From the IMG/VR virus record IMGVR_UViG_3300014922_000089: 29,494 nt of DNA, one strand, 5' to 3'. The position numbers and the translations under genes were made by a program. Below, one piece after another: positions 544-29,494 of this stretch. Position 1 is the first letter of the stretch; every line of letters begins with the position of its first letter. A model generated the notes under the pieces. That model saw nothing but the letters and a program-made list of their open reading frames with translations, was not told the DNA's origin and made no database searches. Source of the stretch: a virus. Its lineage: Duplodnaviria > Heunggongvirae > Uroviricota > Caudoviricetes.

Positions 544-571
544 AAAAAATAAGCCCGTGTAAGGGAGATTA
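544..571. repeat. attL core (direct repeat AAAAAATAAGCCCGTGTAAGGGAGATTA)
   Basis: Exact 28-nt copy also at 27962-27989. Matches the P2 att core as recalled. Sits just downstream of the int 3' end. Confidence 0.8.
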
Positions 572-1777: not shown

Positions 1778-2077
1778 TTAACCAGTCTTTTGACCGGAGT
1801 GGGGCGACGTTGTTTCGTTTTGCCCAAAGTGTGCGAGAGCGGGCGCAATTTGCCCGGACTCAGGAGCGATCTGATTGGTCATGAACCATAAAGTGTATTT
1901 GGTGAATTGTGGGGTCTGCAGGATGTTCATCATGACATCTGTTGGAGGTGTTGAACGACCACTTTCATAGTAACTCAGCGTGCCATACGGAACCCCTGTT
2001 AAATCAGCAAGTTGTTGTCTGCTCAAATACTCTGATTTTCGCATTAAGACTATCTTCTCGCTTATCGTGTTTGACAT
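1778..2077 (-). CDS. C: Immunity repressor C (99 aa, HTH)
   Basis: 99 aa, as P2 C. HTH-like segment LSRQQLADLTGVPYGTLSYYESG. Divergent from cox. Confidence 0.85.
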   Translation of the reverse strand: MSNTISEKIVLMRKSEYLSRQQLADLTGVPYGTLSYYESGRSTPPTDVMMNILQTPQFTKYTLWFMTNQIAPESGQIAPALAHFGQNETTSPHSGQKTG

Positions 2078-2191: not shown

Positions 2192-2467
2192 ATGAGCAAG
2201 CAAGTAACACTCATGACTGATGCGATTCCTTATCAGGAGTTCGCAAAACTAATAGGAAAATCGACAGGAGCGGTTCGTCGGATGATCGATAAAGGAAAGC
2301 TGCCTGTAATTGATATGACCGATCCACAATCAGCTTCAGGTCGTGCAGGTGAATATTGGGTATACCTTCCGGCATGGAATAACGGACTAAAACTGGCTTA
2401 TGAAAGCCGCCCTAAAGAGATTCGTGACGGCTGGTTGATGTGGTTAGGTCTCGGTGAACCACGTTAA
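2192..2467 (+). CDS. cox: Cox (excisionase / early-promoter regulator, 91 aa)
   Basis: 91 aa, as P2 Cox. First gene of the rightward early operon, opposite C. Confidence 0.8.
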   Translation: MSKQVTLMTDAIPYQEFAKLIGKSTGAVRRMIDKGKLPVIDMTDPQSASGRAGEYWVYLPAWNNGLKLAYESRPKEIRDGWLMWLGLGEPR

Positions 2468-6913: not shown

Positions 6914-7391
6914 ATTGCCTCCTGTAAGTAGAGGGCAACTTCCACCGGTATATGCGCTTCTTAGGTGGAATGACTTTTGAGCGAAGTCTTGCCCTGAAAT
7001 AATGCTCTGTTTAAACGCAAAGTGATTTGGCATATCACCGAACAGAGAGCCGGAAAAACACAACATATAGTATGTCGTTGTTTCTAGACATACATTCTAT
7101 GTTGTGTAACAAGGGCTTTGCATTAAACATGTTTGAGATTTTATTGATGTAGCTCAAAGTAAAAAACAGAGACTACGGATGATAAGGTCTTGAAAGCAAT
7201 GTAAATTTTTTAAAGTTGCCAATTGCTTAAAAATGTACAGTTGCGGTATGGCGTACTTAAAAAGCTATGCATGCAACAAGTGAATGTTTTTGCATGCGTT
7301 GGGGATGTCCGTTCAGGCTGCGTGCGGTCAGGACTGGTGCGGATCCATAGTATCTATGCAACTGCATTAAAACCGCCCCGTGAAACGGGCG

Positions 7392-7410
7392 GGCGAGGCG
7401 GGGAAAGCAC
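7392..7410. other. cos site (19-nt cohesive-end sequence GGCGAGGCGGGGAAAGCAC)
   Basis: Exact match to the P2 cohesive-end sequence as recalled. Correct side and orientation relative to Q. Confidence 0.5.
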
Positions 7411-7424
7411 TGCGCGCAAAATGT

Positions 7425-7570: not shown

Positions 7571-8896
7571 ATGAATAATAACTCTAAGTTATTAAGCTCT
7601 ATCTCGGTTGAATCTGATTTCGAGAACCTTATAAAACTATATGCAAATGAGTTATTTGGTGGTGAAACATATCTGATCGGTGGTCCTTGGGATAATGGAA
7701 AGGATTTGGTAATAAAAAAGGGGAATAGAGAGTTAAAGCAAGCTGTACAAATATCTATTCAAGAGAAAAATATTGAAAGTAAGATTGCTCAAGATATTAA
7801 AAAAGTGGCGAAATTGGTTGATGATCATTATTACCCGCCTGTATTATATTTTTTTTGGAGTCATTCAATATCTGAGCATTTATTGGATAAGATAAGAACA
7901 AATGCTCTTAAGGAAGATTTGATTAGATTGGAGTTTTATGATGCCAAACGAATCTCTCAAGATATTACAGATAAATACCCAGGGTTATTGAATTACTTAA
8001 TAAAAGATATACATAAGATAAGTTCTAATACTGAAGATGCAATTAACTTGCAACAAAGAGCATTTTATGAATATTTATTGTTAAGCAAAGATAGTGCTAA
8101 TTTAAAAAATGAAATAATAAAAGCTAGTATTATGTCTAATTTATATGATGGCGGGAAGTCTGCTGATGATATTCTAGAGAATCTAAAAGGTGTTAGTCTT
8201 ACAAAACGTAGTTTACAGGGTAGACTGCAAAACCTAATTCATCAAAATAAAATTAGATTGAATGATGGTATATATAGCCTGTCACCAGAGGAAATTAAAA
8301 AACTTGAGAATATAAATCTCCGTGAAATTGTTAGAAAAGAAGAGTTGTTATCAGTAATAAATAATGAGTTGCCCAGAAATACAAGTAAGAATCTGGCTGT
8401 TCAAGTTGTTGATTTAATAATAAAGGCTTATGAAGAATCAATAAATGTCCAATTAACAGAAAGTAAATTTGAGCCTCCAAAATTACAGATATTCAAAACT
8501 ATAGTACATAATTTAAAGGTGTTGATACGGCAGGAATATGATTTGGATGATGAGTCTTCGGATGCTTTAGCAAAAAAGCTAATGGAGTTGGCTGGTCAAA
8601 ATGACTATTTATCCGAGCATTGCTCTGCTAAATTATGTGTGAATCTGTTAAGTGATCGGAAATTAGAGAAATATATTGAAAATAAAAATTTTTATATCTA
8701 TTTTGATGCGCCTGTTCTTATTCCATATTTGATAACTCTTATGTTTGGAGATTTTGAGCTTTTTGATAAGTCGATTAAAAATATAAATTTACTGAGAGAG
8801 TGCATAAATCCCCTCAAAAATAAACATCTGAGAGTTTCTAATGAACATTTTGAAGAAACTGCAAGGCACTACTCTGAAGCTGAAAAATTAAGTTAG
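7571..8896 (+). CDS. Cargo protein, N-terminal segment (441 aa); possible Mrr-like PD-(D/E)xK nuclease motif
   Basis: ATG at 7571 with SD. AT-rich with K/N/I-rich codon usage, foreign to the phage backbone. Motif GGPWDNGKDLVI...IQEK resembles Mrr-type GGxxDxGxD...QxK. Ends at an in-frame TAG (8894-8896). Confidence 0.7.
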   Translation: MNNNSKLLSSISVESDFENLIKLYANELFGGETYLIGGPWDNGKDLVIKKGNRELKQAVQISIQEKNIESKIAQDIKKVAKLVDDHYYPPVLYFFWSHSISEHLLDKIRTNALKEDLIRLEFYDAKRISQDITDKYPGLLNYLIKDIHKISSNTEDAINLQQRAFYEYLLLSKDSANLKNEIIKASIMSNLYDGGKSADDILENLKGVSLTKRSLQGRLQNLIHQNKIRLNDGIYSLSPEEIKKLENINLREIVRKEELLSVINNELPRNTSKNLAVQVVDLIIKAYEESINVQLTESKFEPPKLQIFKTIVHNLKVLIRQEYDLDDESSDALAKKLMELAGQNDYLSEHCSAKLCVNLLSDRKLEKYIENKNFYIYFDAPVLIPYLITLMFGDFELFDKSIKNINLLRECINPLKNKHLRVSNEHFEETARHYSEAEKLS

Positions 8897-8959
8897 TTTG
8901 TAACTGAAGATTTAATTAGTCAACTTGGTGAGTCGAAAAATGTATACTTTAATGTTTAT

Positions 8960-9832
8960 ATGCGGTGGAAAAACAAACAGCCTAAACGTACAGACTTTTA
9001 CGATTTTACTTATGCTTTTCTAGGGTTGGATAAAGATGATATTTATGCGGGATATAAGCATGACACATTTGCGCAATGCATTCATAATTTACTAGCGTCA
9101 GCAAATATTGTTGTAATTGATAATAAAGACTCGGTGTCACAAGACTTTGTATTTAAAATAAAGCAAAAACTTAAAAGGGATTTGAATTCTTCACGTCCCG
9201 TTCGAGCCATAGAAAATGATGTTATATGTGCTGCAACTTTGAGTGATGAAACCCTACATCTTGATTCCAATGGTTACTTCAGTACTCCCATGCTAATAAC
9301 ACTTGATAGATCTCAATATCTATTGAGAAGCATAGTAAGAAATGAAAGGAGACATGCTGAATGGTTGGTTTATACCCCTCAAAGAGCAATTGAACGTCTT
9401 TCCTTGGTGGGTTTAAAAATATCATCGGAATCGTTAAAGGATGGTGTTTTAGCAACCATATCAGAAGAATATTTCTTTAAAGAAAGTTCCAGTAGTTTGA
9501 TTGATACTTTGGCTATTATCATTGGAGATAATCAAGCAAGGCAAGGAGATGTTATTAGGCTTGCATCGCTTTTAAAAAGAAAGGTCAATGAGGAATCTAT
9601 TGAGAATTCAGAAATTGATATTGAACACTATAATAACATTAGTTATGTGCTTCTTTTCATTCATCGTGAATTTAAATCTGAATTTTCAAATATAATAAAA
9701 ATTTTTGCTGAGGATAGTAGGCGAGATAAACTGGTTGAAGTTTTGTTATCCACTATTCAAGGAGTTTTTGATGAGAGTAAAAAGGAAATCTTGCGCTCAA
9801 ATATAGGACGGTTGTTGGCTGAAATGGGATGA
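8960..9832 (+). CDS. Cargo protein, C-terminal segment (290 aa); same frame as 7571-8896, no own SD
   Basis: Same reading frame as the upstream ORF. The 63 nt between them are open in that frame. No SD upstream of the ATG at 8960. Probably a continuation of one gene interrupted by an amber codon. Confidence 0.55.
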   Translation: MRWKNKQPKRTDFYDFTYAFLGLDKDDIYAGYKHDTFAQCIHNLLASANIVVIDNKDSVSQDFVFKIKQKLKRDLNSSRPVRAIENDVICAATLSDETLHLDSNGYFSTPMLITLDRSQYLLRSIVRNERRHAEWLVYTPQRAIERLSLVGLKISSESLKDGVLATISEEYFFKESSSSLIDTLAIIIGDNQARQGDVIRLASLLKRKVNEESIENSEIDIEHYNNISYVLLFIHREFKSEFSNIIKIFAEDSRRDKLVEVLLSTIQGVFDESKKEILRSNIGRLLAEMG

Positions 9833-9923: not shown

Positions 9924-10958
9924 TTAGGTATCGCAAGTATCTAGTGAGTAGTTTTTAAAGTGGATGACCTCCTGACCGAGCCAGCCGTTTATTTCCCGAA
10001 TTCTGTCCTGTAGCGGGATAAGCTCATTGCGGACAAAGACCTTTGCCACTTTCTCAATATCGCCCAGCGACCCGACGTTCTCCGGCTTGCCGCCCATCAA
10101 CTGAAAAGGGATGCGGTGCGCGTCCAGCAGGTCAGCGGCGCTGGCTTTTTTGATATTAAAAAAATCGTCCTTCGTCGCCACTTCACTGAGCGGGATAATT
10201 TTAATGCCGTCGGCTTTCCCCTGCGGGGCATAGAGAAACAGGTTTTTAAAGTTGTTGCGGCCTTTCGACTTCACCATGTTTTCGCGGAGCACTTCGATAT
10301 CGTTGCGATCCTGCACGGCATCAGTGACGTACATGATGTATCCGGCATGTGCGCCGTTTTCGTAATACTTGCGGCGGAACAGCGTGGCCGACTCATTCAG
10401 CCAGGCAGAGTTAAGGGCGCTGAGATATTCCGGCAGGCCGTACAGCTCCTGATTAATATCCGGCTCCAGCAGGTGAAATACGGAGCCGGGCGCGAAAGGT
10501 GTCGGCTCGTTGAAGGACGGCACCCACCAGTAAACATCCTCCTCCACGCCACGGCGGGTATATTTTGCCGGTGAGGTTTCCAGTCTGATGATCTTACCGG
10601 TGGTGCTGTAACGCTTTTCCAGAAACGCATTACCGAACACCAGAAAATCCAGCACAAAGCGGCTGAAATCCTGTTGTGAAAGCCACGGATGCGGGATAAA
10701 TGTCGAGGCCAGAATATTACGTTTGACGTAAATCGGTGAGCTGTGATGCACGGCAGCACGCAGGCTTTTTGCCAGACCGGTAAAGCTGACCGGTGGCTCA
10801 TACCATCTGCCGTTACTGATGCACTCGACGTAATCCAGAATGTCACGGCGGTCGAGTACCGGCACCGGCTCACCAAAGGTGAATGCCTCCATTTTCGGGG
10901 CGCTGGCGGTCATTTTTTTTGCCGCAGGTTGCGGTGTTTTCCCTTTTTTCTTGCTCAT
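9924..10958 (-). CDS. Q: Portal protein Q (344 aa)
   Basis: 344 aa, as P2 Q. Leftward operon with P. Confidence 0.9.
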   Translation of the reverse strand: MSKKKGKTPQPAAKKMTASAPKMEAFTFGEPVPVLDRRDILDYVECISNGRWYEPPVSFTGLAKSLRAAVHHSSPIYVKRNILASTFIPHPWLSQQDFSRFVLDFLVFGNAFLEKRYSTTGKIIRLETSPAKYTRRGVEEDVYWWVPSFNEPTPFAPGSVFHLLEPDINQELYGLPEYLSALNSAWLNESATLFRRKYYENGAHAGYIMYVTDAVQDRNDIEVLRENMVKSKGRNNFKNLFLYAPQGKADGIKIIPLSEVATKDDFFNIKKASAADLLDAHRIPFQLMGGKPENVGSLGDIEKVAKVFVRNELIPLQDRIREINGWLGQEVIHFKNYSLDTCDT

Positions 10959-12730: not shown

Positions 12731-12903
12731 GAATACCTCGCCGTGATGAATACACGGCAAGGCTACTGAGTCGCGCCCCGCGATTCGCTAAGGTGCTGTT
12801 GTGTCAGTGATAAGCCATCCGGGACTGATGGCGGAGGATGCGCATCGTCGGGAAACTGATGCCGACATGTGACTCCTCTAATCACTATTCAGGACTCCTG
12901 ACA

Positions 12904-17672: not shown

Positions 17673-18085
17673 TGATTGTGCTGGTCGTGTTGTTATCGCT
17701 GGCGGTGACCGGTCTGTTTCTGGTGAAACACAAAAATGCCAGCCTGCGCGCCTCGCTGGACAGGGCGAATAACGTCGCCAGTGAACAGCAGACGACCATC
17801 ACCATGCTGAAAAATCAGCTTCATGTTGCCATCACCAGGGCAGACAAAAACGAGCTGGCGCAGGTGGCACTGCGTCAGGAACTGGAGAACGCCGCGAAGC
17901 GTGAAGCACAGCGCGAGAAAACCATCACGAGGTTACTTAATGAAAACGAAGATTTTCGCCGCTGGTATGGTGCTGACCTGCCTGATGCTGTGCGCCGGTT
18001 GCACCAGCGCCCCGCCTGCACCGACGCCAGTGATTGTCGCCAACGCCTGCCCGAAAGTGAGCCTTTGCCCGATGCCGGGCAGTGA
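17660..18085 (+). CDS. lysB: LysB (Rz-like inner-membrane spanin), 141 aa
   Basis: N-terminal transmembrane helix followed by a coiled-coil region. 141 aa. Confidence 0.75.
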   Translation: MSKLMIVLVVLLSLAVTGLFLVKHKNASLRASLDRANNVASEQQTTITMLKNQLHVAITRADKNELAQVALRQELENAAKREAQREKTITRLLNENEDFRRWYGADLPDAVRRLHQRPACTDASDCRQRLPESEPLPDAGQ

Positions 18086-18230
18086 CCCGCAGACGAACGG
18101 CGATTTAAGTGCCGATATCCGGCAGCTTGAGAACGCGCTGGCACGCTGTGCCAGCCAGGTAAAAATGATTAAACACTGTCAGGATGAAAACGATGCTCAA
18201 ACCCGACAGCCTGCGCAGGGCGCTGACTGA
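17940..18230 (+). CDS. lysC: LysC (Rz1-like outer-membrane lipoprotein spanin), 96 aa, embedded out of frame in lysB
   Basis: MKTKIFAAGMVLTCLMLCAGC: signal peptide plus lipobox. Proline-rich. Overlaps the lysB 3' end in another frame. Confidence 0.7.
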   Translation: MKTKIFAAGMVLTCLMLCAGCTSAPPAPTPVIVANACPKVSLCPMPGSDPQTNGDLSADIRQLENALARCASQVKMIKHCQDENDAQTRQPAQGAD

Positions 18231-18414
18231 TGCCGTCACGGTGCTGAAAACCAGTCCCGAGATGCTGCGGATATTCGTGGATACTGGATGTGCAAAGGCT
18301 CCTGGTCATATGCAAATAACAAAATCATTACGGATACCGGATGTGGTGATATCCACCTGGCTGGTTGTGTCGTCGAGGTCATGGGAACAAAATCTGCAAT
18401 CACCATCCGAGTGA
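18193..18414 (+). pseudogene. R: Truncated tail completion gene R (only about 32 N-terminal codons R-like, then junk)
   Basis: MLKPDSLRRALTDAVTVLKTSPEMLRIFVDTG matches the gpR N-terminus as recalled. The frame then runs into unrelated sequence. S, V, W, J and I are absent. Confidence 0.5.
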
Positions 18415-19394
18415 CAACGCCGACAACATCAAGTGGTGGCGGTACAACCAGCGCGCAATTCACTTACATTAATCATGGGGACGGCTACTCCCCCGGCTGG
18501 CGTCGTGACTGGAATCGTCAGGGCGACGCAATGACCGGAACGATTAATCAGGACGGCGGAAGCCAGAATACCTATATGTCTACGGCCTTATGTTCAGGCA
18601 CCAGAGGCGGCAAAAAATATCTCAGAAAGTTTCGTGGTGGAGAAGGAGACACTATCTGGCATGAAACAGTACAGGGCGGGGTTGTTCGCTGGGCGACTGG
18701 TAATACTGATGCTCAGGAAGAATTATCACTCAGCTCCGCTTATGGTCTCCGTTCAAGAGGTGAGATTACATCAAGCAGTGCTAATGGTCTGCGCATTGCT
18801 TATGGCAATTATGGATTCTTTATCAGGAATGATGGCAGCAGCACTTATTTTATGTTGACTAAATCAGGTGACAGATTAGGCACTTATAATAATTTAAGAC
18901 CACTGATTATAAATGATGCCACGGGTGCTGTATCAATGGGGCATGGCCTGAGTGTTACTGGTGATATTGTCTCAAGTACCAAAGTACGTGCCGGTAGCGG
19001 GAAAAAATTCACGGTCAGCAGCAGTAATACATCCACGAAGGAAGCCGCATTCAATTTGTGGGGAAACTCAAGTCGTCCGGTGGTGGCTGAATTAGGTGAT
19101 GATGCAGGCTGGCATTTTTACAGTCAGAGAAATACAGATAACAGCATCACTTTTGCTGTTAACGGTCAGGTATCACCATCTAACTATAGTAATTTTGATT
19201 CCCGTTATGTACGCGATATCCGGCTTGGGACTCGAGTTGTCCAGACCATGCAGAAAGGGGTGATGTATGAGAAAGCAGGGCACGTAATTACCGGGCTTGG
19301 TATTGTCGGTGAAGTCGATGGTGATGATCCCGCAGTATTCAGACCAATACAAAAATACATCAATGGCACATGGTATAACGTCGCACAGGTGTAA
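18288..19394 (+). pseudogene. H: 3' fragment of tail fibre gene H (C-terminal about 368 codons), no N-terminal region
   Basis: Gly/Ser/Thr-rich fibre-like sequence ending immediately before G. P2 H is 669 aa, so the 5' half is missing. Confidence 0.6.
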
Positions 19395-19397
19395 TTT

Positions 19398-19925
19398 ATG
19401 CAGCATTTAAAAAATATTACTGCGGGTAATCCAAAAACTGTTGCCCAATATCAACTGACAAAAAATTTTGATGTTATCTGGTTATGGTCCGAAGAGGGAA
19501 AAAACTGGTATGAGGAAGTAAGTAATTTTCAGGAAGACACGATAAAGATTGTTTACGACGAGAATAATATAATTGTCGGCATCACCAGAGATGCTTCAAC
19601 GCTCAACCCTGAAGGTTTTAGCGTTGTCGAGGTTCCTGATATTACCGCCAACCGACGTGCTGATGACTCAGGTAAATGGATGTTTAAGGATGGTGCCGTG
19701 ATTAAGAGGATTTATACGGCAGACGAACAGCAACAACAGGCAGAATCACAAAAGGCCGCGTTACTTTCCGAAGCGGAAAGCGTTATTCAGCCACTGGAGC
19801 GCGCTGTCAGGCTGAACATGGCAACAGATGAGGAGCGTAGCCGACTGGAAGCATGGGAACGCTACAGTGTTCTGGTCAGCCGTGTGGATCCTGCAAATCC
19901 TGAATGGCCGGAAATGCCGCAATAA
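19398..19925 (+). CDS. G: Tail fibre assembly chaperone G (175 aa)
   Basis: 175 aa, as P2 G. Immediately downstream of the H fragment. Confidence 0.8.
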
Positions 19926-20076: not shown

Positions 20077-20856
20077 TTAAAATATCCAACTGATAAATCC
20101 ACCTGAATACTTTTCACTAATTTTGATTGCATAAAGATCATGAAGAGTTATAAATAAATCATTATCTTCTTTGAAAATTAACTCCTCATATTCTGCCATT
20201 ATCAAATTATGCTGTGTTGTTAGTTTAGATATGTTATCTATTTCACTGGCAAGCATGGATTTGTTTACATTGGTGTGTGGATCCATGGCAATATATTTCC
20301 GCATCAATGGAATTAGTTGATCAGGGTCTATATTTTTTGCATTTTCCTTTGCTTTTTTTTGTCTTTCTGAATAGATGGAGTTAATTGTGTCAGTGTGTTT
20401 TTTCGCCAGTCTCTTAAACTCTGGATATGAACCAGTAACTAATGCAAGCTCTTCGTACTTAAGGAATAAATCGATATTGCATTTTTTTACCGTCATTTCA
20501 AGATCTTCAACTCTTTTTTTTAACTCTTCATTTGTTTTAATAAGAGACATCGGGAGAACTTCATAATGTTGTCCTAATTCTGAATCAGGGCTCATTGCCA
20601 TATGTACTATTTCATTATACATGAGCTGATAAGAAGCAGATAACTCTCCATACTTTAGAAATAGTTCATTATGTGAAGATGAACAAGAACTTTGTAATTT
20701 CATCATTGGCCTAAAGTAATCCTTTATAAACTCCTCCTGAAGATCTTGGTCTTTTTTGTAGCTCTCTAGGATTCCAGCAAAAAGAAATGACCCTAAAGAT
20801 ATAGAGATTATGGATATTAGCAATTGACTAAGGAATGATTGTGTTTCATTACTCAT
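20077..20856 (-). CDS. AT-rich cargo protein, 259 aa, N-terminal transmembrane helix (Z/fun-position gene)
   Basis: ATG at 20856 with AAGGA SD. One predicted transmembrane helix (LSQLLISIISISLGSFLFAGIL), then a helical soluble region. Opposite strand to the late genes. AT-rich. Confidence 0.65.
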   Translation of the reverse strand: MSNETQSFLSQLLISIISISLGSFLFAGILESYKKDQDLQEEFIKDYFRPMMKLQSSCSSSHNELFLKYGELSASYQLMYNEIVHMAMSPDSELGQHYEVLPMSLIKTNEELKKRVEDLEMTVKKCNIDLFLKYEELALVTGSYPEFKRLAKKHTDTINSIYSERQKKAKENAKNIDPDQLIPLMRKYIAMDPHTNVNKSMLASEIDNISKLTTQHNLIMAEYEELIFKEDNDLFITLHDLYAIKISEKYSGGFISWIF

Positions 20857-21133
20857 AAAACATCCTTAAAAAATAACACGAAAAGTGACTCCTGACAGGG
20901 AAGAAACGACAGGTCGGAAACAAACTTAACTGATGAGTTAGCCGTAGTCCAGAACCTTGTTTGAACACTTAGTGTGACTGTTTGCATCTCAGGAATTTGT
21001 GCCAATAACATTTGAATCCTTATAATTTATTTAAATCAAATTTAGTTACTCGCTCAAAGCAGGCTGTCAGATTTGATAGCATTTGGGCTATGTAAATTGT
21101 CAGGCGGAAAATGAGTGAGTACAAATCAGGACA

Positions 21134-21256: not shown

Positions 21257-22447
21257 ATGAGTGACTATCATCACGGCGTGCAGGTGCTGGAGATTAACGA
21301 CGGCACCCGCGTCATTTCCACCGTATCCACAGCCATTGTCGGCATGGTCTGCACGGCCAGCGATGCGGATGCGGAAACCTTCCCCATCAATAAACCGGTG
21401 CTGATTACCAATGTGCAGAGCGCAATTGCAAAGGCTGGTAAAAAAGGCACGCTGGCGGCATCGTTGCAGGCCATCGCCGACCAGTCAAAACCGGTCACCG
21501 TTGTCGTGCGTGTGGAAGACGGCACCGGCGACGACGAGGAAACGAAACTCGCGCAGACCGTTTCCAATATCATCGGCACCACCGACGAAAACGGTCAGTA
21601 CACCGGACTGAAAGCCCTGCTGGCGGCGGAGTCGGTAACCGGTGTTAAACCGCGTATTCTCGGCGTGCCGGGACTGGACACCAAAGAGGTGGCTGTTGCA
21701 CTGGCATCAGTCTGTCAGAAGCTGCGCGCTTTCGGGTATATCAGCGCATGGGGCTGTAAAACCATTTCCGAGGTGAAAGCCTACCGTCAGAATTTCAGCC
21801 AGCGTGAGCTGATGGTCATCTGGCCGGATTTCCTCGCATGGGATACGGTTGCCAGTACCACCGCCACCGCGTATGCCACCGCCCGTGCGCTGGGTCTGCG
21901 TGCCAGAATCGACCAGGAGCAGGGCTGGCATAAAACGCTGTCCAACGTCGGGGTGAACGGTGTTACCGGCATCAGCGCATCTGTATTCTGGGATTTGCAG
22001 GAGTCCGGCACCGATGCTGACCTGCTGAATGAGTCAGGCGTCACAACGCTGATTCGCCGTGACGGTTTCCGCTTCTGGGGTAACCGTACCTGCTCTGATG
22101 ACCCGCTGTTCCTCTTTGAAAACTACACCCGCACCGCGCAGGTGCTGGCCGATACGATGGCTGAGGCGCACATGTGGGCGGTGGACAAGCCCATCACCGC
22201 AACGCTGATTCGCGACATCGTTGACGGCATCAATGCCAAATTCCGTGAGCTGAAAACAAACGGCTATATCGTGGATGCGACCTGCTGGTTCAGCGAAGAA
22301 TCCAACGATGCGGAAACCCTCAAGGCCGGAAAACTGTATATCGACTACGACTATACCCCGGTGCCTCCTCTCGAAAACCTGACCCTGCGCCAGCGTATTA
22401 CCGATAAATACCTGGCAAATCTGGTCACCTCGGTTAACAGCAATTAA
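21257..22447 (+). CDS. FI: Tail sheath protein FI (396 aa)
   Basis: 396 aa, as P2 FI. Confidence 0.9.
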   Translation: MSDYHHGVQVLEINDGTRVISTVSTAIVGMVCTASDADAETFPINKPVLITNVQSAIAKAGKKGTLAASLQAIADQSKPVTVVVRVEDGTGDDEETKLAQTVSNIIGTTDENGQYTGLKALLAAESVTGVKPRILGVPGLDTKEVAVALASVCQKLRAFGYISAWGCKTISEVKAYRQNFSQRELMVIWPDFLAWDTVASTTATAYATARALGLRARIDQEQGWHKTLSNVGVNGVTGISASVFWDLQESGTDADLLNESGVTTLIRRDGFRFWGNRTCSDDPLFLFENYTRTAQVLADTMAEAHMWAVDKPITATLIRDIVDGINAKFRELKTNGYIVDATCWFSEESNDAETLKAGKLYIDYDYTPVPPLENLTLRQRITDKYLANLVTSVNSN

Positions 22448-22459
22448 GGAGCCTGACCG

Positions 22460-22978
22460 ATGGCAATGCCGCGCAAACTCAAGTTAATGAACGTCTTTCT
22501 GAACGGCTACAGCTATCAGGGCGTTGCAAAGTCCGTCACGCTGCCAAAACTGACCCGTAAACTCGAAAACTATCGCGGTGCGGGGATGAACGGAAGCGCA
22601 CCGGTAGACCTCGGCCTTGATGACGATGCGCTGTCAATGGAGTGGTCGCTCGGGGGCTTCCCGGATTCGGTTATCTGGGAGCTTTACGCCGCAACCGGTG
22701 TGGATGCCGTGCCGATTCGTTTTGCCGGTTCTTACCAGCGTGACGATACCGGCGAAACGGTGGCCGTCGAGGTGGTCATGCGTGGACGTCAGAAAGAAAT
22801 CGACACCGGTGAGGGTAAACAGGGAGAAGACACCGAGTCGAAAATCTCCGTGGTCTGCACCTATTTCCGGCTGACGATGGACGGTAAGGAGCTGGTCGAA
22901 ATTGATACCATCAACATGATTGAGAAGGTGAACGGCGTCGACCGGCTGGAGCAACACCGCCGCAATATCGGCCTGTGA
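22460..22978 (+). CDS. FII: Tail tube protein FII (172 aa)
   Basis: 172 aa, as P2 FII. Confidence 0.9.
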   Translation: MAMPRKLKLMNVFLNGYSYQGVAKSVTLPKLTRKLENYRGAGMNGSAPVDLGLDDDALSMEWSLGGFPDSVIWELYAATGVDAVPIRFAGSYQRDDTGETVAVEVVMRGRQKEIDTGEGKQGEDTESKISVVCTYFRLTMDGKELVEIDTINMIEKVNGVDRLEQHRRNIGL

Positions 22979-23034
22979 TTTTCATCCGGTCAGCCTGGCT
23001 GACCGGTTAACCCCGATTCATAAGTGAGAAAACC

Positions 23035-23310
23035 ATGAACAAAGAAAATGTGATTACCCTGGACAATCCGGTCAAGCGTGGTGAGCAGGTCATCGAACAG
23101 GTCACGCTGATGAAACCCAGTGCCGGGACGCTGCGCGGTGTCAGTCTGGCTGCGGTCGCGAACTCTGAAGTCGATGCACTGATTAAGGTGCTGCCGCGCA
23201 TGACGGCACCGATGCTGACCGAGCAGGAAGTCGCCGCGCTGGAACTGCCTGACCTTGTGGCGCTGGCCGGTAAGGTGGTCGGTTTTTTGTCGCCGAACTC
23301 GGTGCAGTGA
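23035..23310 (+). CDS. E: Tail assembly chaperone E (91 aa); E+E' extension by -1 frameshift to about 23460
   Basis: 91 aa. Slippery GGTTTTTTG near the 3' end. The -1 frame stays open to just before the T start. Confidence 0.75.
   Translation: MNKENVITLDNPVKRGEQVIEQVTLMKPSAGTLRGVSLAAVANSEVDALIKVLPRMTAPMLTEQEVAALELPDLVALAGKVVGFLSPNSVQ
23281..23289 (+). promoter_or_regulatory. Programmed -1 ribosomal frameshift slippery site (G GTT TTT TG) for E+E'
   Basis: Heptanucleotide T-run at the end of E. The -1 frame encodes ...VAEFPKNLSVDDLMADVAVIFHWPPSELYPMSLTELITWREKALRRSGNTNE. Confidence 0.6.
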
Positions 23311-23454
23311 CGTTCCCGAAAAATCTCTCGGTCGATGACCTGATGGCGGATGTGGCAGTGATATTTCACTGGCCGCCATCAGAACTGTATCCCATGAGTC
23401 TGACCGAACTCATCACATGGCGCGAAAAGGCGCTCCGGCGAAGCGGAAACACGA

Positions 23455-25902
23455 ATGAGTAACAATGTAAAATTACAGGTATTGCTCAGGGCTGTTGACC
23501 AGGCATCCCGCCCGTTTAAATCCATCCGCACAGCGAGCAAATCGCTGTCGGGGGATATCCGGGAAACACAAAAATCACTGCGCGAGCTGAACGGTCAGGC
23601 ATCCCGTATTGAGGGATTTCGCAAGACCAGTGCACAGCTCGCCGTGACTGGTCATGCACTTGAAAAGGCACGGCAGGAGGCCGAAGCCCTTGCCACGCAG
23701 TTTAAAAATACCGAACGTCCGACCCGTGCTCAGGCGAAAGTGCTGGAATCCGCAAAGCGTGCGGCGGAGGACTTACAGGCGAAATATAACCGCCTGACAG
23801 ATTCCGTTAAACGCCAGCAGCGGGAACTGGCCGCTGTGGGAATTAATACCCGCAATCTTGCACATGATGAGCAGGGACTGAAAAACCGTATCAGTGAAAC
23901 CACCGCACAGCTTAACCGGCAGCGTGACGCGCTGGCGCGTGTCAGTGCGCAACAGGCAAAACTTAATGCAGTAAAACAGCGTTATCAGGCCGGAAAGGAA
24001 CTGGCCGGAAATATGGCCTCAGTGGGCGCTGCCGGTGTGGGGATTGCTGCTGCGGGAACGATGGCCGGAGTTAAGTTGCTGATGCCCGGTTATGAGTTTG
24101 CGCAGAAAAACTCAGAATTGCAGGCCGTGCTCGGTGTGGCAAAAGACTCCGCCGAAATGACCGCACTCCGCAAGCAGGCGCGCCAGCTCGGCGACAACAC
24201 CGCCGCCTCAGCGGATGATGCGGCTGGTGCGCAGATTATCATTGCGAAAGCGGGTGGAGATGCTGCGGCTATTCAGGCGGCAACGCCGGTCACACTGAAT
24301 ATGGCACTGGCGAATCAGCGGTCGATGGAAGAAAACGCGCAACTGTTGCTGGGGACTAAGGCATCCTTTCAACTGTCAAATGATGATGTCAGCCATGTGG
24401 GCGACGTGTTGTCGGCAACGATGAATAAGTCGGCGGCTGATTTTCAGGGACTCAGTGATGCACTGACTTACCTCGGTCCGGTTGCTAGGACGGCAGGTGT
24501 AAGTCTTGAACAGGCAGCGGCCATGACAGGTGTGCTGCATGACAATAACATCAGGGGGTCAATGGCGGGGACGGGGAGCAGTGCCGTTGTCACCCGATTA
24601 CAGGCACCGACTGGAAAAGCATGGGATGCACTCAAAGAGCTTGGCGTTAAAACCTCGGACAAAAAGGGAAATATGCGTCCGTTGTTCACCATTCTGAAAG
24701 AGATTCAGGCCAGCTTTGATAAACACAAGCTGGGAACGTCTCAGAAGGGGGAATACCTTAAAACCATTTTTGGTGAGGAAGCCCTGAAATCAGCGAACGT
24801 TTTACTGGCAGCGGCAGCAAGCGGAAAACTGGATAAGCTGACCGCCACGCTGAAAGCCTCGGACGGTAAAACGGAAGAGCTGGTTAAAATCATGCAGGAT
24901 AACCTCGGCGGTGACTTTAAGGAGTTTCAGTCTGCTTATGAGGCGGTGGGGACTGACCTGTTTGACCAGCAGGAAGGCGCACTGCGTAATCTCACACAGA
25001 CGGCCACAAAGTATGTGTTAAAACTCGATGGCTGGATCCAGAAAAACAAATCACTGGCGTCAACCATCGGCCTCATTGCCGGTGGCGCACTGGCGCTGAC
25101 TGCTGTCATCGGTGCCATTGGCCTCGTAGCCTGGCCGGTTATCACTGGCATCAATGCCATTATCGCGGCAGCAGGCGCAATGGGGGCAATCTTCACGACG
25201 GTTGGCAGTGCTGTTATGACCGCCATCGGGGCGATTAGCTGGCCGGTTGTGGCCGTGGTGGCCGCCATTGTCGCCGGGGCGTTGCTTATCCGTAAATACT
25301 GGGAGCCTGTCAGCGCATTCTTTGGCGGTGTGATGGAAGGGCTGAAAGCGGCATTTGCGCCGGTGGGGGAACTGTTCACGCCACTTAAGCCGGTGTTTGA
25401 CTGGCTGGGCGAAAAGTTACAGGCCGCGTGGCAGTGGTTTAAAAACCTGATTGCCCCGGTCAAAGCCACCCAGGACACCCTGAACCGTTGCCGTGATACT
25501 GGCGTCATGTTCGGGCAGGCACTGGCTGACGCGCTGATGCTGCCGCTTAATGCGTTCAACAAACTGCGCAGCGGAATTGACTGGGTACTGGAAAAACTCG
25601 GTGTTATCAACAAAGAGTCAGACACACTTGACCAGACCGCCGCCAGAACTCAAGCCGCCACGTATGGCAGCGGTGGTTATATTCCGGCGACCAGCTCTTA
25701 TGCAGGCTATCAGGCTTATCAGCCGGTTACGGCACCGGCTGGCCGCTCTTATGTGGACCAGAGTAAAAACGAATATCACATCAGCCTGACGGGTGGTACT
25801 GCGCCGGGGACACAGCTTGACCGCCAGTTACAGGATGCACTCGAAAAATACGAGCGGGATAAACGTGCGCGCGCCCGTGCCAGCATGATGCATGACGGTT
25901 AA
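23455..25902 (+). CDS. T: Tail tape measure protein T (815 aa)
   Basis: 815 aa, as P2 T. Coiled-coil N-terminus and Ala/Gly-rich hydrophobic central region. Confidence 0.9.
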   Translation: MSNNVKLQVLLRAVDQASRPFKSIRTASKSLSGDIRETQKSLRELNGQASRIEGFRKTSAQLAVTGHALEKARQEAEALATQFKNTERPTRAQAKVLESAKRAAEDLQAKYNRLTDSVKRQQRELAAVGINTRNLAHDEQGLKNRISETTAQLNRQRDALARVSAQQAKLNAVKQRYQAGKELAGNMASVGAAGVGIAAAGTMAGVKLLMPGYEFAQKNSELQAVLGVAKDSAEMTALRKQARQLGDNTAASADDAAGAQIIIAKAGGDAAAIQAATPVTLNMALANQRSMEENAQLLLGTKASFQLSNDDVSHVGDVLSATMNKSAADFQGLSDALTYLGPVARTAGVSLEQAAAMTGVLHDNNIRGSMAGTGSSAVVTRLQAPTGKAWDALKELGVKTSDKKGNMRPLFTILKEIQASFDKHKLGTSQKGEYLKTIFGEEALKSANVLLAAAASGKLDKLTATLKASDGKTEELVKIMQDNLGGDFKEFQSAYEAVGTDLFDQQEGALRNLTQTATKYVLKLDGWIQKNKSLASTIGLIAGGALALTAVIGAIGLVAWPVITGINAIIAAAGAMGAIFTTVGSAVMTAIGAISWPVVAVVAAIVAGALLIRKYWEPVSAFFGGVMEGLKAAFAPVGELFTPLKPVFDWLGEKLQAAWQWFKNLIAPVKATQDTLNRCRDTGVMFGQALADALMLPLNAFNKLRSGIDWVLEKLGVINKESDTLDQTAARTQAATYGSGGYIPATSSYAGYQAYQPVTAPAGRSYVDQSKNEYHISLTGGTAPGTQLDRQLQDALEKYERDKRARARASMMHDG

Positions 25903-25916
25903 GGAGGTGACGAAAA

Positions 25917-26396
25917 ATGATGCTCGCGTTAGGTATGTTTGTTTTTATGCGCCAGACGCTGCCACACCAGACCATGCAGCGTGAATCAGATTATCGCTGG
26001 CCGTCAAATTCCCGTATCGGTAAACGGGATGCCTACCAGTTTCTCGGTGTGGGTGAGGAAAACATCACGCTTGCCGGTGTGCTTTATCCCGAACTGACCG
26101 GCGGCAAGCTGACGATGACCACGCTCAGGCTGATGGCAGAGGAAGGCCGGGCGTGGCCGTTGCTGGATGGCACCGGCATGATTTACGGCATGTATGTCAT
26201 CAGCAAGGTGAGTGAAACAGGGAGTATTTTCTTTGCAGACGGCACACCCCGAAAAATTGATTTTACGCTGTCGCTCACCCGTGTTGATGAATCACTGGCC
26301 GCGCTTTATGGCGATATCGGTAAACAGGCGGAATCGCTCATCGGTAAGGCTGGCAGTATGGCGGCTAAATTCACGGGTATGACGGGGGCGGAATAA
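25917..26396 (+). CDS. U: Tail protein U (159 aa)
   Basis: 159 aa, as P2 U. Confidence 0.85.
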   Translation: MMLALGMFVFMRQTLPHQTMQRESDYRWPSNSRIGKRDAYQFLGVGEENITLAGVLYPELTGGKLTMTTLRLMAEEGRAWPLLDGTGMIYGMYVISKVSETGSIFFADGTPRKIDFTLSLTRVDESLAALYGDIGKQAESLIGKAGSMAAKFTGMTGAE

Positions 26397-27559
26397 TGCT
26401 GGATGCGCGGACATTTTATGCAGGCAGTACGCTGACGCCGGATTACATGCTGATGCTCGACAGCAGGGATATTACCGGCAATATCAGCGACCGTCTGATG
26501 AGCATGACCCTGACGGATAACCGGGGCTTTGAGGCTGACCAGCTTGATATTGAACTGAACGATGCCGACGGGCAGGTCGGGCTGCCGGTTCGTGGCGCTG
26601 TCCTGACGGTGTATATCGGCTGGAAAGGTTTTGCCCTGGTATGCAAAGGGAAATTTACCGTTGATGAGGTTGAACACCGGGGCGCGCCGGATGTGGTCAC
26701 CATCCGCGCCCGGAGTGCAGATTTTCGCGGGACGCTCAATTCCCGCCGTGAAGGCTCCTGGCATGACACCACGCTCGGTGCGATTGTTGAGGCGATAGCC
26801 TCCCGTAACAGGCTGGAAGCCAGTGTCGCTCCGTCACTGGCCGGAATTAAAATCCCGCACATCGACCAGTCGCAGGAGTCTGATGCAAAATTCCTGACCC
26901 GCCTTGCTGAACGCAACGGCGGTGAGGTGTCGGTAAAAATGGGAAAACTGTTGTTTCTCAAAGCGGGGCAGGGGGTGACGGCCAGCGGTAAAAAAGTCCC
27001 GCAGGTCACCATAACCCGCAGCGACGGCGACCGCCATCATTTTGCGATTGCTGACCGTGGAGCCTATACCGGCGTAACGGCAAAGTGGTTACACACCAAA
27101 GACCCGAAGCCGCAAAAGCAGAAGGTAAAACTGAAACGCAAAAAGAAAGAGAAACACCTGCGCGCACTGGAGCACCCGAAAGCGAAACCAGTCACGCAGA
27201 AGAAAGCGCCAAAAGTACCGGAAGCGCGCGAAGGTGAATACATGGCCGGTGAGGCTGACAACGTTTTTGCACTGACCACGGTATATGCCACGAAAGCACA
27301 GGCCATGCGCGCCGCTCAGGCGAAGTGGGATAAACAGCAACGGGGTGTGGCGGAGTTCTCCATCAGCCTGGCTACCGGTCGGGCAGATATTTACACGGAA
27401 ACACCGGTTAAAGTGTCAGGCTTTAAGCGCGTCATAGACGAGCAGGACTGGACAATCACTAAGGTGACACATTTTCTGAGTAATAGCGGCTTCACGACGT
27501 CCTTAGAGCTTGAGGTCAGGCTTTCTGATGTGGAGTACGAAACAGAAGATGATGAGTGA
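26396..27559 (+). CDS. D: Tail protein D (387 aa)
   Basis: 387 aa, as P2 D. Confidence 0.85.
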   Translation: MLDARTFYAGSTLTPDYMLMLDSRDITGNISDRLMSMTLTDNRGFEADQLDIELNDADGQVGLPVRGAVLTVYIGWKGFALVCKGKFTVDEVEHRGAPDVVTIRARSADFRGTLNSRREGSWHDTTLGAIVEAIASRNRLEASVAPSLAGIKIPHIDQSQESDAKFLTRLAERNGGEVSVKMGKLLFLKAGQGVTASGKKVPQVTITRSDGDRHHFAIADRGAYTGVTAKWLHTKDPKPQKQKVKLKRKKKEKHLRALEHPKAKPVTQKKAPKVPEAREGEYMAGEADNVFALTTVYATKAQAMRAAQAKWDKQQRGVAEFSISLATGRADIYTETPVKVSGFKRVIDEQDWTITKVTHFLSNSGFTTSLELEVRLSDVEYETEDDE

Positions 27560-27961: not shown

Positions 27962-27989
27962 AAAAAATAAGCCCGTGTAAGGGAGATTA
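27962..27989. repeat. attR core (direct repeat of 544-571)
   Basis: Exact 28-nt copy of the attL core. Confidence 0.8.
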
Positions 27990-28132
27990 CACAGGCTAAG
28001 GAGGTGGTTCCTGGTACAGCTAGCATTTTATGGGTTATGTTTTTCAGCGAAACGGATGATAACCTTAATAAATGCAGCTGTATGTGATCGGTTTCTAAGA
28101 ATTTTCCATCCGGGAAAAATAATCGAAATTAA

Positions 28133-29494
28133 TCACTTACCGTGGGGATTACGCGTGGTTTCCCCGGAGAAATTACGCATCAGCAGCGCGTAATTGAGCT
28201 CAAGATCCTGCGGGACCGGGAGCCACACAGTATAACCATCGCCTGGTGCTATCGGCATAGCTTCGCCTTTGGCGTTTTCCATGTGCTCAAGGGTAAAATT
28301 AATGTTGCCTTGCGGCGTCATCAGCTCAAGGCTGTCGCCAACGGAGAATTTATTTTTCACCGCTACCGCCGCGAGGTCCCCCTTGCGCTCACCGGTAAAC
28401 TCACCAACAAACTGCTGGCGGTCAGAAACTGAATAACCGTATTCGTAGTTCTGATAATCGTCGTGAGTATGACGACGCAGGAAACCTTCGGTATAGCCAC
28501 GATGCGCCAGACCTTCCAGAGTTTCCAGCAGGCTGGTATCGAACGGTTTTCCCGCAGCGGCGTCATCGATAGCTTTGCGGTAAACCTGTGCGGTGCGTGC
28601 ACAATAGTAGAAAGATTTGGTACGACCTTCGATTTTCAGCGAATGCACGCCCATTTTGGTCAGGCGTTCTACATGGGCGATGGCGCGCAGATCTTTCGAG
28701 TTCATGATGTAAGTGCCGTGCTCATCTTCAAACGCGGTCATATACTCGCCCGGACGCTGGGCCTCTTCGATCATAAACACTTTGTCGGTTGGTGCGCCGA
28801 TACCCAGCGTCGGCTCAACATTTTGCACCGGAATCGGCTCGTACTTGTGTACGATGTTGCCAACATCATCTTCTTTCCCTTCCTGGACGTTGTACTCCCA
28901 GCGGCAGGCGTTGGTGCAGGTGCCCTGGTTCGGGTCGCGCTTGTTGATATAGCCAGAGAGCAGGCAGCGACCGGAGTAGGCCATGCACAGCGCGCCGTGA
29001 ACGAAGATCTCGATCTCCATATCCGGCACCTGATTGCGGATCTCTTCAATCTCTTCCAGCGACAGCTCGCGAGAGAGGATCACGCGGGTCAGGCCCATTT
29101 GCTGCCAGAATTTCACCGTCGCCCAGTTCACGGCGTTAGCCTGCACCGAAAGGTGGATCGGCATTTCAGGGAAGTGCTCACGCACCAGCATAATCAGCCC
29201 TGGATCGGACATAATCAGCGCATCCGGCCCCATTTCCACCACCGGTTTCAGGTCACGGATAAAGGTTTTCAGCTTGGCGTTGTGCGGTGCAATGTTGACC
29301 ACGACATAAAACTTTTTCCCCAGCGCGTGGGCTTCATTGATGCCGAGCTGAAGATTTTCGTGGTTGAATTCGTTGTTGCGCACACGCAGGGAATAACGCG
29401 GCTGGCCCGCATAAACAGCATCTGCGCCATAAGCGAAAGCGTAACGCATATTTTTCAGCGTTCCCGCCGGGGAAAGGAGTTCCGGTTTAAACAT
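28133..29494 (-). CDS. yegQ: Peptidase U32-family protein YegQ/TrhP (453 aa), host flank
   Basis: Full-length 453 aa starting MFKPELLSPAGTLKNMRYAFAYGADAVYAGQPRY, with the start codon at the window edge. Outside the att repeat. Confidence 0.85.
   Translation of the reverse strand: MFKPELLSPAGTLKNMRYAFAYGADAVYAGQPRYSLRVRNNEFNHENLQLGINEAHALGKKFYVVVNIAPHNAKLKTFIRDLKPVVEMGPDALIMSDPGLIMLVREHFPEMPIHLSVQANAVNWATVKFWQQMGLTRVILSRELSLEEIEEIRNQVPDMEIEIFVHGALCMAYSGRCLLSGYINKRDPNQGTCTNACRWEYNVQEGKEDDVGNIVHKYEPIPVQNVEPTLGIGAPTDKVFMIEEAQRPGEYMTAFEDEHGTYIMNSKDLRAIAHVERLTKMGVHSLKIEGRTKSFYYCARTAQVYRKAIDDAAAGKPFDTSLLETLEGLAHRGYTEGFLRRHTHDDYQNYEYGYSVSDRQQFVGEFTGERKGDLAAVAVKNKFSVGDSLELMTPQGNINFTLEHMENAKGEAMPIAPGDGYTVWLPVPQDLELNYALLMRNFSGETTRNPHGK

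What the first reader, a model, noticed from the sequence alone, without database searches (positions are those of the whole stretch)
18190..18420. Internal deletion from within R to within H removes the baseplate/tail completion module (S, V, W, J, I)
After lysB/lysC the R-like reading frame matches a tail completion protein for only about 32 codons and then runs into unrelated sequence. The next readable gene is the C-terminal half of tail fibre H, followed directly by G. The genes for S, V, W, J, I and the H N-terminus (about 5-6 kb in P2) are missing. The prophage therefore cannot build a baseplate or tail fibres and is almost certainly defective, yet it keeps int, the C/cox switch, replication, head, lysis and both cargo loci. 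This is a domesticated prophage pattern. The element could still be mobilised or packaged with a helper.
Basis: partly seen in the sequence, partly recalled or inferred. Interest (0 to 1): 0.6.

Follow-up and report, generated by a model that had tools for sequence, protein, structure and literature searches.

The report
Tail-gene deletion in a P2-like prophage
A P2-type virus resident in an E. coli chromosome has lost about 5.9 kb covering its baseplate and tail-completion genes through one clean deletion, so it cannot make infectious particles alone; this is a real but ordinary case of prophage decay.

Summary
The window holds a P2-like prophage of 27,418 bp between perfect 28-nt att cores (544-571 and 27962-27989), inserted in the 3' end of cyaR between yegR and yegQ. 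Homology to intact P2-like prophages stops at 18283 in R and resumes at 18282 in H, so the junction is 18283|18284 with 2 nt (TA) of ambiguity. Against the closest intact relative, E. coli GB089, 5,878 bp are missing. The lost interval covers R codons 31-155, S, the S/V cargo slot, the O-operon terminator, the pV promoter, V, W, J, I and H codons 1-394. R' is frameshifted (73 aa, 30 of them native). 'H (18288-19394) is 100% identical to GB089 H residues 397-764. No S, V, W, J or I homologue exists elsewhere in the window, and every other essential P2 gene is full length. The identical junction occurs in at least three independent samples, so it is not an assembly artefact. It is absent from 5,426 complete E. 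coli genomes. Carriers are nearly identical, which points to a recent, lineage-specific illegitimate deletion. "Defective" is supported; "domesticated" is not shown. One cargo gene carries a nonsense codon in this window. Interest is low.

The parts
544..571 (.). attL core (28-nt perfect direct repeat, identical to the P2 attP core)
   Evidence: the P2 alignment begins at P2 24356, the start of the attP core
7363..7417 (+). cos core (55 bp matching P2; 19-nt cohesive-end sequence at 7392-7410)
   Evidence: exact 19-mer GGCGAGGCGGGGAAAGCAC plus flanking homology
12794..12824 (+). Ogr/activator binding site of the pP/pO late promoters, retained. With the terminator gone, 'H-G now lie inside the pO transcription unit
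   Evidence: exact match to P2 3057-3087. The read-through transcription is inferred
17940..18230 (+). lysC (Rz1-like spanin), intact; the last intact gene before the junction
   Evidence: 96 of 96 aa aligned, 96.9% identical to P2 LysC
18193..18414 (+). R' remnant: 30 native codons of tail terminator gpR (18193-18283), then 43 out-of-frame codons read through H DNA
18282..18284 (.). Deletion junction 18283|18284, with the 2-nt TA (18282-18283) shared by both parental sequences
   Evidence: The same 39-mer occurs in L003, L004, L006 and L008
18282..19394 (+). 'H: C-terminal 370 codons (395-764) of tail fibre H. The first possible start is ATG 18288 (Met397), giving a 368-aa ORF with no R-H fusion
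   Evidence: 100% identity to GB089 H 395-764; Gp34_trimer and tail-fibre PHROGs matched at internal or C-terminal profile positions
19398..19925 (+). G, tail fibre assembly chaperone, intact
20077..21011 (-). Cargo at the Z/fun position: 259-aa protein (phrog_7729, unknown function) plus a 52-aa ORF
21257..27559 (+). F operon (FI, FII, E/E', T, U, D), all full length
27962..27989 (.). attR core (second copy of the 28-nt repeat), inside the 3' end of cyaR

Best explanation
A P2-like (Peduovirus) prophage integrated at cyaR/yegQ underwent one illegitimate, RecA-independent-type deletion of about 5.9 kb. The two ends share only 2 nt (TA). The deletion joined codon 31 of R to codon 395 of H.

It removed most of R (tail terminator), S (tail completion), the variable S/V cargo slot, the O-operon terminator, the Ogr-dependent pV promoter, V (spike), W, J and I (baseplate wedge), and the baseplate-proximal half of the H fibre.

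Shown: the breakpoints, the frames, the absence of the genes, and the intactness of everything else.

Inferred: if derepressed, the element could still excise (int, cox and att are intact), replicate (A, B and the surrounding region are collinear with P2), make and fill heads (Q, P, O, N, M, L and cos) and lyse the cell (Y, K, lysABC). Tail assembly cannot nucleate without a baseplate, so no infectious virions would form. 'H-G would be transcribed only by read-through from pO. 'H lacks a good ribosome-binding site and lacks its baseplate-attachment domain. The deletion is recent and confined to one prophage lineage. It is ordinary prophage decay, not an evolved design.
For: Breakpoints and 2-nt overlap. 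Every phage and E. coli hit breaks at the same base.

Missing genes absent from the whole window. All other P2 genes are full length without stops, at 91-100% aa identity to P2.

tO and the pV activator site are absent, and the pO/pP site is retained. No terminator-like site lies on the + strand between lysC and the end of G.

The junction is real. The identical 39-mer is present in an ENA metagenome scaffold, in NCBI GCA_903973615.1 and in Logan ERR526045. A 2-nt overlap cannot produce a k-mer mis-join.

Lineage-specific and recent. The exact T variant is on 19 contigs, and both places shown whose upstream DNA reaches the junction (L006, L008) carry the deletion. The T gene is 100% identical over 2,448 nt between the window and L003. 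No complete E. coli genome (0 of 5,426) holds the junction. It is also absent from the GTDB representatives, IMG/VR and JGI metagenomes.

Normal architecture R-S-(cargo)-V-W-J-I-H-G in all 8 places shown of prophages sharing the same LysB.
Against: No intact direct ancestor was found. The best left-flank identity in complete genomes is 98.4%, so the exact deleted length (with or without an S/V cargo gene) is inferred from GB089.

The block 18282 to about 20900 is 100% identical to GB089, while the rest of the prophage is 2-3% divergent. The left edge of this identity block coincides with the junction. That leaves open an origin during module exchange instead of a simple in-situ deletion.

The phenotype (tail-less heads, no plaques) has not been tested.
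Confidence: 0.88

Rival explanations
1. The junction arose by homology-facilitated illegitimate recombination during tail-fibre module exchange. A donor fragment from a GB089-like phage ('H tip, G and Z/fun cargo) was anchored by homology on the right, near the G-FI intergenic/pF region. It was joined illegitimately on the left inside R, replacing the recipient's R-to-G interval with a shorter piece. The end product and the phenotype are the same as in the best explanation; only the origin differs.
For: The 100%-identity block to GB089 starts exactly at the junction (18282) and ends at about 20900-21050. Both flanks are 2-3% divergent, including 7 differences in 18000-18283. P2 homology resumes at 21049, a typical module boundary.
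Against: A simple deletion inside an already mosaic ancestor gives the same pattern if the identity block originally extended further left into the deleted interval. Tail-fibre and cargo mosaicism is the norm in P2-like phages. No intermediate genome is available to decide.
Confidence: 0.2
2. Assembly or scaffolding artefact: the R-H join is a mis-assembly between two P2-like prophages, or a collapsed region.
For: No complete (mostly long-read) E. coli genome contains the junction. P2-like prophages are often present in 2 or more copies per genome (median 2 places for the 2.5-kb R-to-G query).
Against: The same 39-nt junction was assembled independently in an ENA metagenome scaffold (152.8 kb), an NCBI isolate assembly and a Logan run. 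In all, 19 contigs carry the exact 'H ORF, and RefSeq holds it as WP_282045056.1. Only 2 nt are shared at the join, far below any assembler k-mer.
Confidence: 0.02
3. Selected domestication: the host keeps the disarmed prophage for immunity and defence cargo, and loss of the baseplate module was favoured.
For: att, int, C/cox and the cargo loci are retained. Defective P2-like elements with conserved defence genes are documented (PMC13586616).
Against: The carriers compared are near-identical, so there has been no time for selection to show. The lysis cassette and all head genes are intact, so the element is not disarmed for killing. The large cargo gene is a nonsense pseudogene in this window. 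The cargo proteins match no known defence family. P2-type prophages are already non-inducible (PMC2669165), so there is little to gain from loss of tail genes.
Confidence: 0.07
4. Helper-dependent mobile element: the deleted prophage still spreads, making its own DNA-filled heads and borrowing complete tails or baseplate proteins from a co-resident or superinfecting P2-like phage.
For: The cos core, terminase (P, M), portal, capsid, scaffold and head-completion genes, int/cox and both att cores are intact. Missing late functions are trans-complementable in principle (inference). A more severely defective P2-like prophage (Sp13) is excised and packaged in O157 Sakai (PMC2669165). About 30% of complete E. 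coli genomes carry P2-like modules.
Against: C is 100% identical to P2 C, so a homo-immune helper would be repressed. No helper is known in the carrier genomes. The 27.4-kb genome is 82% of P2 length, and its packaging efficiency is unknown. The junction is not in IMG/VR viral contigs.
Confidence: 0.15

Closest known systems
Bacteriophage P2 (Peduovirus P2, NC_001895) and intact P2-like prophages such as that of E. coli GB089 (NZ_CP013663.1)
   Same: Gene order is collinear with 91-100% aa identity for int, C, cox, B, A, Q, P, O, N, M, L, X, Y, K, lysABC, G, FI, FII, E, T, U, D and ogr. The att core and cos 19-mer are identical. GB089 uses the same cyaR/yegQ integration site.
   Different: Lacks R codons 31-155, S, the S/V cargo, tO, pV, V, W, J, I and H codons 1-394. 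Carries different cargo at the A-Q and G-FI hotspots.
Defective P2-like prophages, e.g. Sp13 of E. coli O157 Sakai (PMC2669165) and the 'incomplete, likely defective' P2-like elements with conserved defence genes (PMC13586616)
   Same: A P2-family prophage that has lost morphogenetic genes while keeping integration and regulatory functions and accessory cargo.
   Different: This one has a single clean deletion with every other gene intact, whereas Sp13 lacks most morphogenetic genes. It is a very early stage of decay. No evidence of packaging or of stabilised defence function was obtained here.
Helper-dependent elements that borrow only tails (capsid-forming PICIs) and the P4 satellite. Resemblance recalled from my own knowledge, used as a lead only.
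   Same: Would need another phage's tail or baseplate components to become infectious, while supplying its own packaging machinery.
   Different: There are no dedicated helper-sensing or subversion genes. It still encodes sheath, tube, tape measure and hub. It derives from a recent deletion, not from an evolved satellite lineage.

Membership tests
P2-like (Peduovirus) prophage | Collinear P2 gene order with high identity across the early, replication, head, lysis and tail-sheath modules | tested here: met
   three collinear BLASTN blocks at 94-98% identity. 32 of the 42 P2 proteins queried gave a hit: 29 over their whole length or all but the last 1-7 residues, R and H only in part, and Q over 341 of 344 residues.
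P2-like (Peduovirus) prophage | P2-type att core duplicated at both ends, and a P2/P4-type cos site | tested here: met
   28-nt perfect repeat, 27,418 bp apart; equals the P2 attP core; exact 19-nt cos within a 55-bp core
Complete (self-sufficient) P2-like prophage | All essential late genes present, including R, S, V, W, J, I and H | tested here: not met
   S, V, W, J and I are absent. R keeps 30 of 155 codons. H keeps codons 395-764 only.
Complete (self-sufficient) P2-like prophage | Late transcription units with Ogr-dependent promoters (pP/pO, pV and pF) | tested here: not met
   the pO/pP activator site is retained at 12794-12824. The pV activator site and tO terminator are absent. The pF region is collinear with P2 but divergent.
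R-type tailocin / domesticated tail cluster | Complete contractile tail with baseplate and fibres, without head and replication genes | tested here: not met
   this is the opposite pattern. Head, packaging and replication genes are kept and the baseplate is lost.
Domesticated (selectively retained) defective prophage | Long-term retention with purifying selection on the kept genes, across diverged hosts | tested here: inconclusive
   19 contigs carry the exact 'H and T proteins, and the T gene is 100% identical between two samples, so there is too little divergence to test selection. Cargo nonsense mutation in the window.
Phage satellite (P4-like) | Helper-subversion genes (sid, psu, delta, epsilon) and no capsid genes of its own | tested here: not met
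   the whole element apart from its cargo is collinear with P2 and encodes its own capsid, terminase and portal. The cargo ORFs have no family hits.

The most novel reading that the evidence does not exclude
The deletion derivative is not a dead end. It would be a nascent 'hitcher': a P2-derived element that still excises, replicates and packages itself into its own heads, and spreads by borrowing baseplates or tails from hetero-immune P2-like phages. That would be a snapshot of how a tail-dependent satellite can arise from a helper phage in one step. A side possibility is that 'H-G, now inside the pO operon, supply a soluble receptor-binding fibre tip or a recombination donor for incoming phages.
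Probability: 0.1. Interest if true: 0.45.

Novelty: new member of a known kind. Interest (0 to 1): 0.12.

Why it matters
The main use is for annotation. The 368-aa 'hypothetical protein' (WP_282045056.1) is a tail-fibre remnant, the 73-aa ORF is a frameshifted gpR stub, and the prophage should be scored as defective despite looking nearly complete. It is also a cleanly mapped example of the first step of prophage decay. It would serve as a convenient natural substrate for testing trans-complementation of tail modules among P2-like phages. It does not open a new question.

Tried and rejected
1. In-frame R-H fusion protein: rejected. The R frame starts codons at 18283 and the H frame at 18282. 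There is no slippery site.

2. Int-mediated deletion between secondary att-like sites: rejected. The left breakpoint resembles the att core (CGTG..TAA.GGGAG.ATT), but 8% of random 40-nt windows score as well. The right breakpoint is at the median of the distribution.

3. Longer microhomology or a repeat at the junction: none beyond TA. By my own estimate an overlap of 2 nt or more is expected by chance about 16% of the time, so it is not informative about mechanism. No IS element or scar is present at the junction.

4. Search for an intact ancestor. Complete E. coli genomes reach at most 98.4% identity on the left flank. Exact-T look-ups returned only deleted copies.

5. Junction scans of the GTDB representative genomes (two patterns), IMG/VR and JGI metagenomes: no hits.

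6. Missing genes relocated elsewhere in the window: none found.

7. Cargo proteins against Pfam, PADLOC and PHROGs: nothing except phrog_7729 (unknown function) for the 259-aa protein.

8. Rough frequency check in the 5,426 complete E. coli genomes. The head/lysis segment matches 1,944 places and the V-I segment 1,844 places. At most a few percent of P2-like copies lack the baseplate module, so such losses are uncommon but not exceptional.

Full report
**What the window is.** The window holds a P2-like prophage flanked by host genes: yegR at 67-384 and yegQ at 28133-29494 on the minus strand. The element is bounded by a perfect 28-nt direct repeat, AAAAAATAAGCCCGTGTAAGGGAGATTA, at 544-571 and 27962-27989, which are 27,418 bp apart. 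BLASTN against phage P2 (NC_001895, L005) begins and ends exactly at the annotated attP core, P2 24356-24382. Rfam places the CyaR/RyeE sRNA at 27965-28050 on the minus strand, overlapping attR, so the phage sits in the 3' end of cyaR. E. coli GB089 (NZ_CP013663.1) carries an intact P2-like prophage at the same site.

**Check of the observation.** The window aligns to the GB089 prophage (L001) in two collinear blocks. Window 12161-18283 matches L001 1-6122 at 97.5% identity, and window 18282-29494 matches L001 12001-23212.
- At base level the window reads ...ATTCGTGGATA|CTGGATGTGC....
- The R parent continues ...GGATA-ACGGGAG, and the H parent reads ...CCGTA-CTGGATG.
- The junction is therefore 18283|18284, with only TA shared, and 5,878 bp of GB089 sequence (L001 6123-12000) are missing.
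- All phage hits (173 records) and all E. coli hits break at the same base.

**The two remnant reading frames.** The R start annotated in P2 and GB089 corresponds to window 18193. R' keeps 30 codons plus 1 nt and then reads 43 out-of-frame codons to a stop at 18414. Pfam GpR matches profile positions 1-37 and the PHROG tail-terminator family matches positions 1-35. H in GB089 is 764 aa, and L001 12001 is the first base of codon 395. The first start codon in that frame is ATG 18288 (Met397). tblastn gives 100% identity over H 395-764, and G is 100% identical. 'H is therefore a fragment and not a complete unrelated protein. R' and 'H are in different frames, so no fusion protein is made.

**Are the missing genes elsewhere?** No. 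tblastn with GB089 R, S, V, W, J and I finds nothing else in the window, with best E values of 0.07 or higher. P2 S, orf30, V, W, J and I give no hit at E <= 1e-3. Every other P2 gene aligns without stop codons, over its whole length or all but the last 1-7 residues, at 91-100% aa identity. That set comprises int, C, cox, orf78, B, orf80-83, A, Q, P, O, N, M, L, X, Y, K, lysA, lysB, lysC, G, FI, FII, E, T, U, D and ogr.

**What else went with the deletion.** According to the P2 annotation, the interval also contains the O-operon terminator, the S/V accessory slot and the Ogr-dependent pV activator site and start. The S/V slot holds orf30 in P2, an ATP-binding protein in GB089, and other genes or none in other relatives. 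Neither tO nor the pV site is present in the window, while the pP/pO activator site is retained exactly at 12794-12824. No terminator-like hairpin lies on the + strand between lysC and the end of G. I infer that 'H-G would now be transcribed only by read-through from pO. The sequence before ATG 18288 has at best a weak Shine-Dalgarno-like GGA, so I expect 'H expression to be poor. In any case the fragment lacks the N-terminal half of H, which I take from my own knowledge of P2 to carry the baseplate attachment.

**Is the junction real?** Yes.
- The exact 368-aa 'H ORF is on 19 contigs and is in RefSeq as WP_282045056.1, annotated 'hypothetical protein'.
- The identical 39-nt junction is present in an ENA metagenome scaffold (L003/L006), in NCBI GCA_903973615.1 (L004) and in Logan run ERR526045 (L008).
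- A 2-nt overlap cannot cause a k-mer mis-join.
- The junction is absent from all 5,426 complete E. coli genomes, from the GTDB representative genomes, from IMG/VR and from JGI metagenomes.

**Age and spread.** The T gene is the most variable core gene relative to GB089, with 81-107 differences per 500 nt. It is 100% identical over 2,448 nt between the window and L003. The exact T protein occurs on 19 contigs, and both places shown whose upstream DNA reaches the junction (L006, L008) carry the deletion. No intact ancestor was found; the best left-flank identity among complete genomes is 98.4%. In contrast, the window's LysB allele is widespread, and in all eight places shown it is followed by intact R-S-(cargo)-V-W-J-I-H-G. 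The deletion is a recent, lineage-specific event.

**Mechanism of formation.** There is no repeat, IS element or att-like site at the breakpoints. Similarity of the breakpoints to the Int core is within chance: 8% of random windows score as well as the left breakpoint and 56% score as well as the right one. The simplest reading is illegitimate, microhomology-poor recombination. One caveat applies. The block from 18282 to about 20900 ('H, G and the Z/fun-position cargo) is 100% identical to GB089, whereas the rest of the prophage differs by 2-3%. The junction could therefore be the illegitimate end of a homology-anchored module exchange. The product is the same either way.

**Consequences (inferred).** The element keeps both att cores, int and cox, and it keeps A, B and the surrounding region collinear with P2. 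It also keeps the 55-bp cos core (7363-7417), terminase, portal, capsid and lysis genes. On that basis it should be able to excise, replicate, fill heads and lyse the cell. Contractile-tail assembly starts from the baseplate, so it should yield no infectious particles without a helper. C is 100% identical to the P2 repressor, and P2 is not SOS-inducible (PMC2669165). Mitomycin C is therefore a poor test.

**Comparison with what is known.** Defective P2-like prophages are well documented. Sp13 of O157 Sakai lacks most morphogenetic genes yet is excised and packaged (PMC2669165). A 2026 survey describes incomplete P2-like elements whose defence genes stay conserved, and it leaves open whether that reflects domestication (PMC13586616). 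The A-Q cos-proximal hotspot is also established (PMC9122126). The present case is a very early, single-hit stage of the same process.

'Domestication' is not demonstrated. The carriers compared are almost identical and the lysis genes are intact. In this window the 753-aa cargo gene carries CAG->TAG at 8894-8896, whereas L003 and L004 have CAG. A rough count in complete E. coli genomes gives 1,944 places matching the head/lysis segment and 1,844 matching V-I. Loss of the baseplate module is therefore uncommon but not exceptional.

**Verdict.** The finding is a new instance of a known kind and is of low interest.

Noticed in passing
window 7571-9832 (+), stop at 8894-8896: The large cargo gene in the A-Q hotspot is 753 aa and uninterrupted in L003/L004, but it carries a CAG->TAG nonsense codon in the window. 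It has no Pfam, PADLOC or PHROG hit. Only 1 of 5,426 complete E. coli genomes (strain 1218KP, 96% identity) has it.
   Followed up: partly
window 7363-7417 (cos) relative to 7571-9832 and Q at 9924-10958: The cargo gene lies between cos and Q, replacing P2 nt 27-198 including the tQ terminator. In P2 (old/tin) and GB089 (SIR2) the cargo lies on the A side of cos. In the virion DNA this cargo would sit at the extreme left end.
   Followed up: partly
window 20077-21011 (-): The cargo at the Z/fun position is a 259-aa protein (phrog_7729, unknown function; cluster of 176 members, all named members from E. coli) plus a 52-aa ORF. Neither matches Pfam or PADLOC.
   Followed up: partly
window 18282 to about 20900: The tail-fibre tip, G and Z/fun cargo block is 100% identical to E. 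coli GB089, while the rest of the prophage is 2-3% divergent. This indicates a recently exchanged module whose left edge coincides with the deletion junction.
   Followed up: partly
window 27965-28050 (-): The CyaR/RyeE sRNA (Rfam RF00112, 100.7 bits) overlaps the attR core. The prophage is inserted in the 3' end of cyaR, and the att core reconstitutes that end.
   Followed up: no
window 1781-2077 (-) and 2192-2464 (+): The C repressor and Cox are 100% identical in amino-acid sequence to those of P2 itself, so the element should confer P2 immunity and should not be SOS-inducible.
   Followed up: partly
L001 7042-8286 (-); L010-L017, between S and V: The S/V intergenic slot (orf30 in P2) is a third variable cargo site. 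It holds a 414-aa ATP-binding protein in GB089, proteins of 357, 347 or 261 aa in other relatives, and nothing in L016. This slot was lost with the deletion.
   Followed up: no
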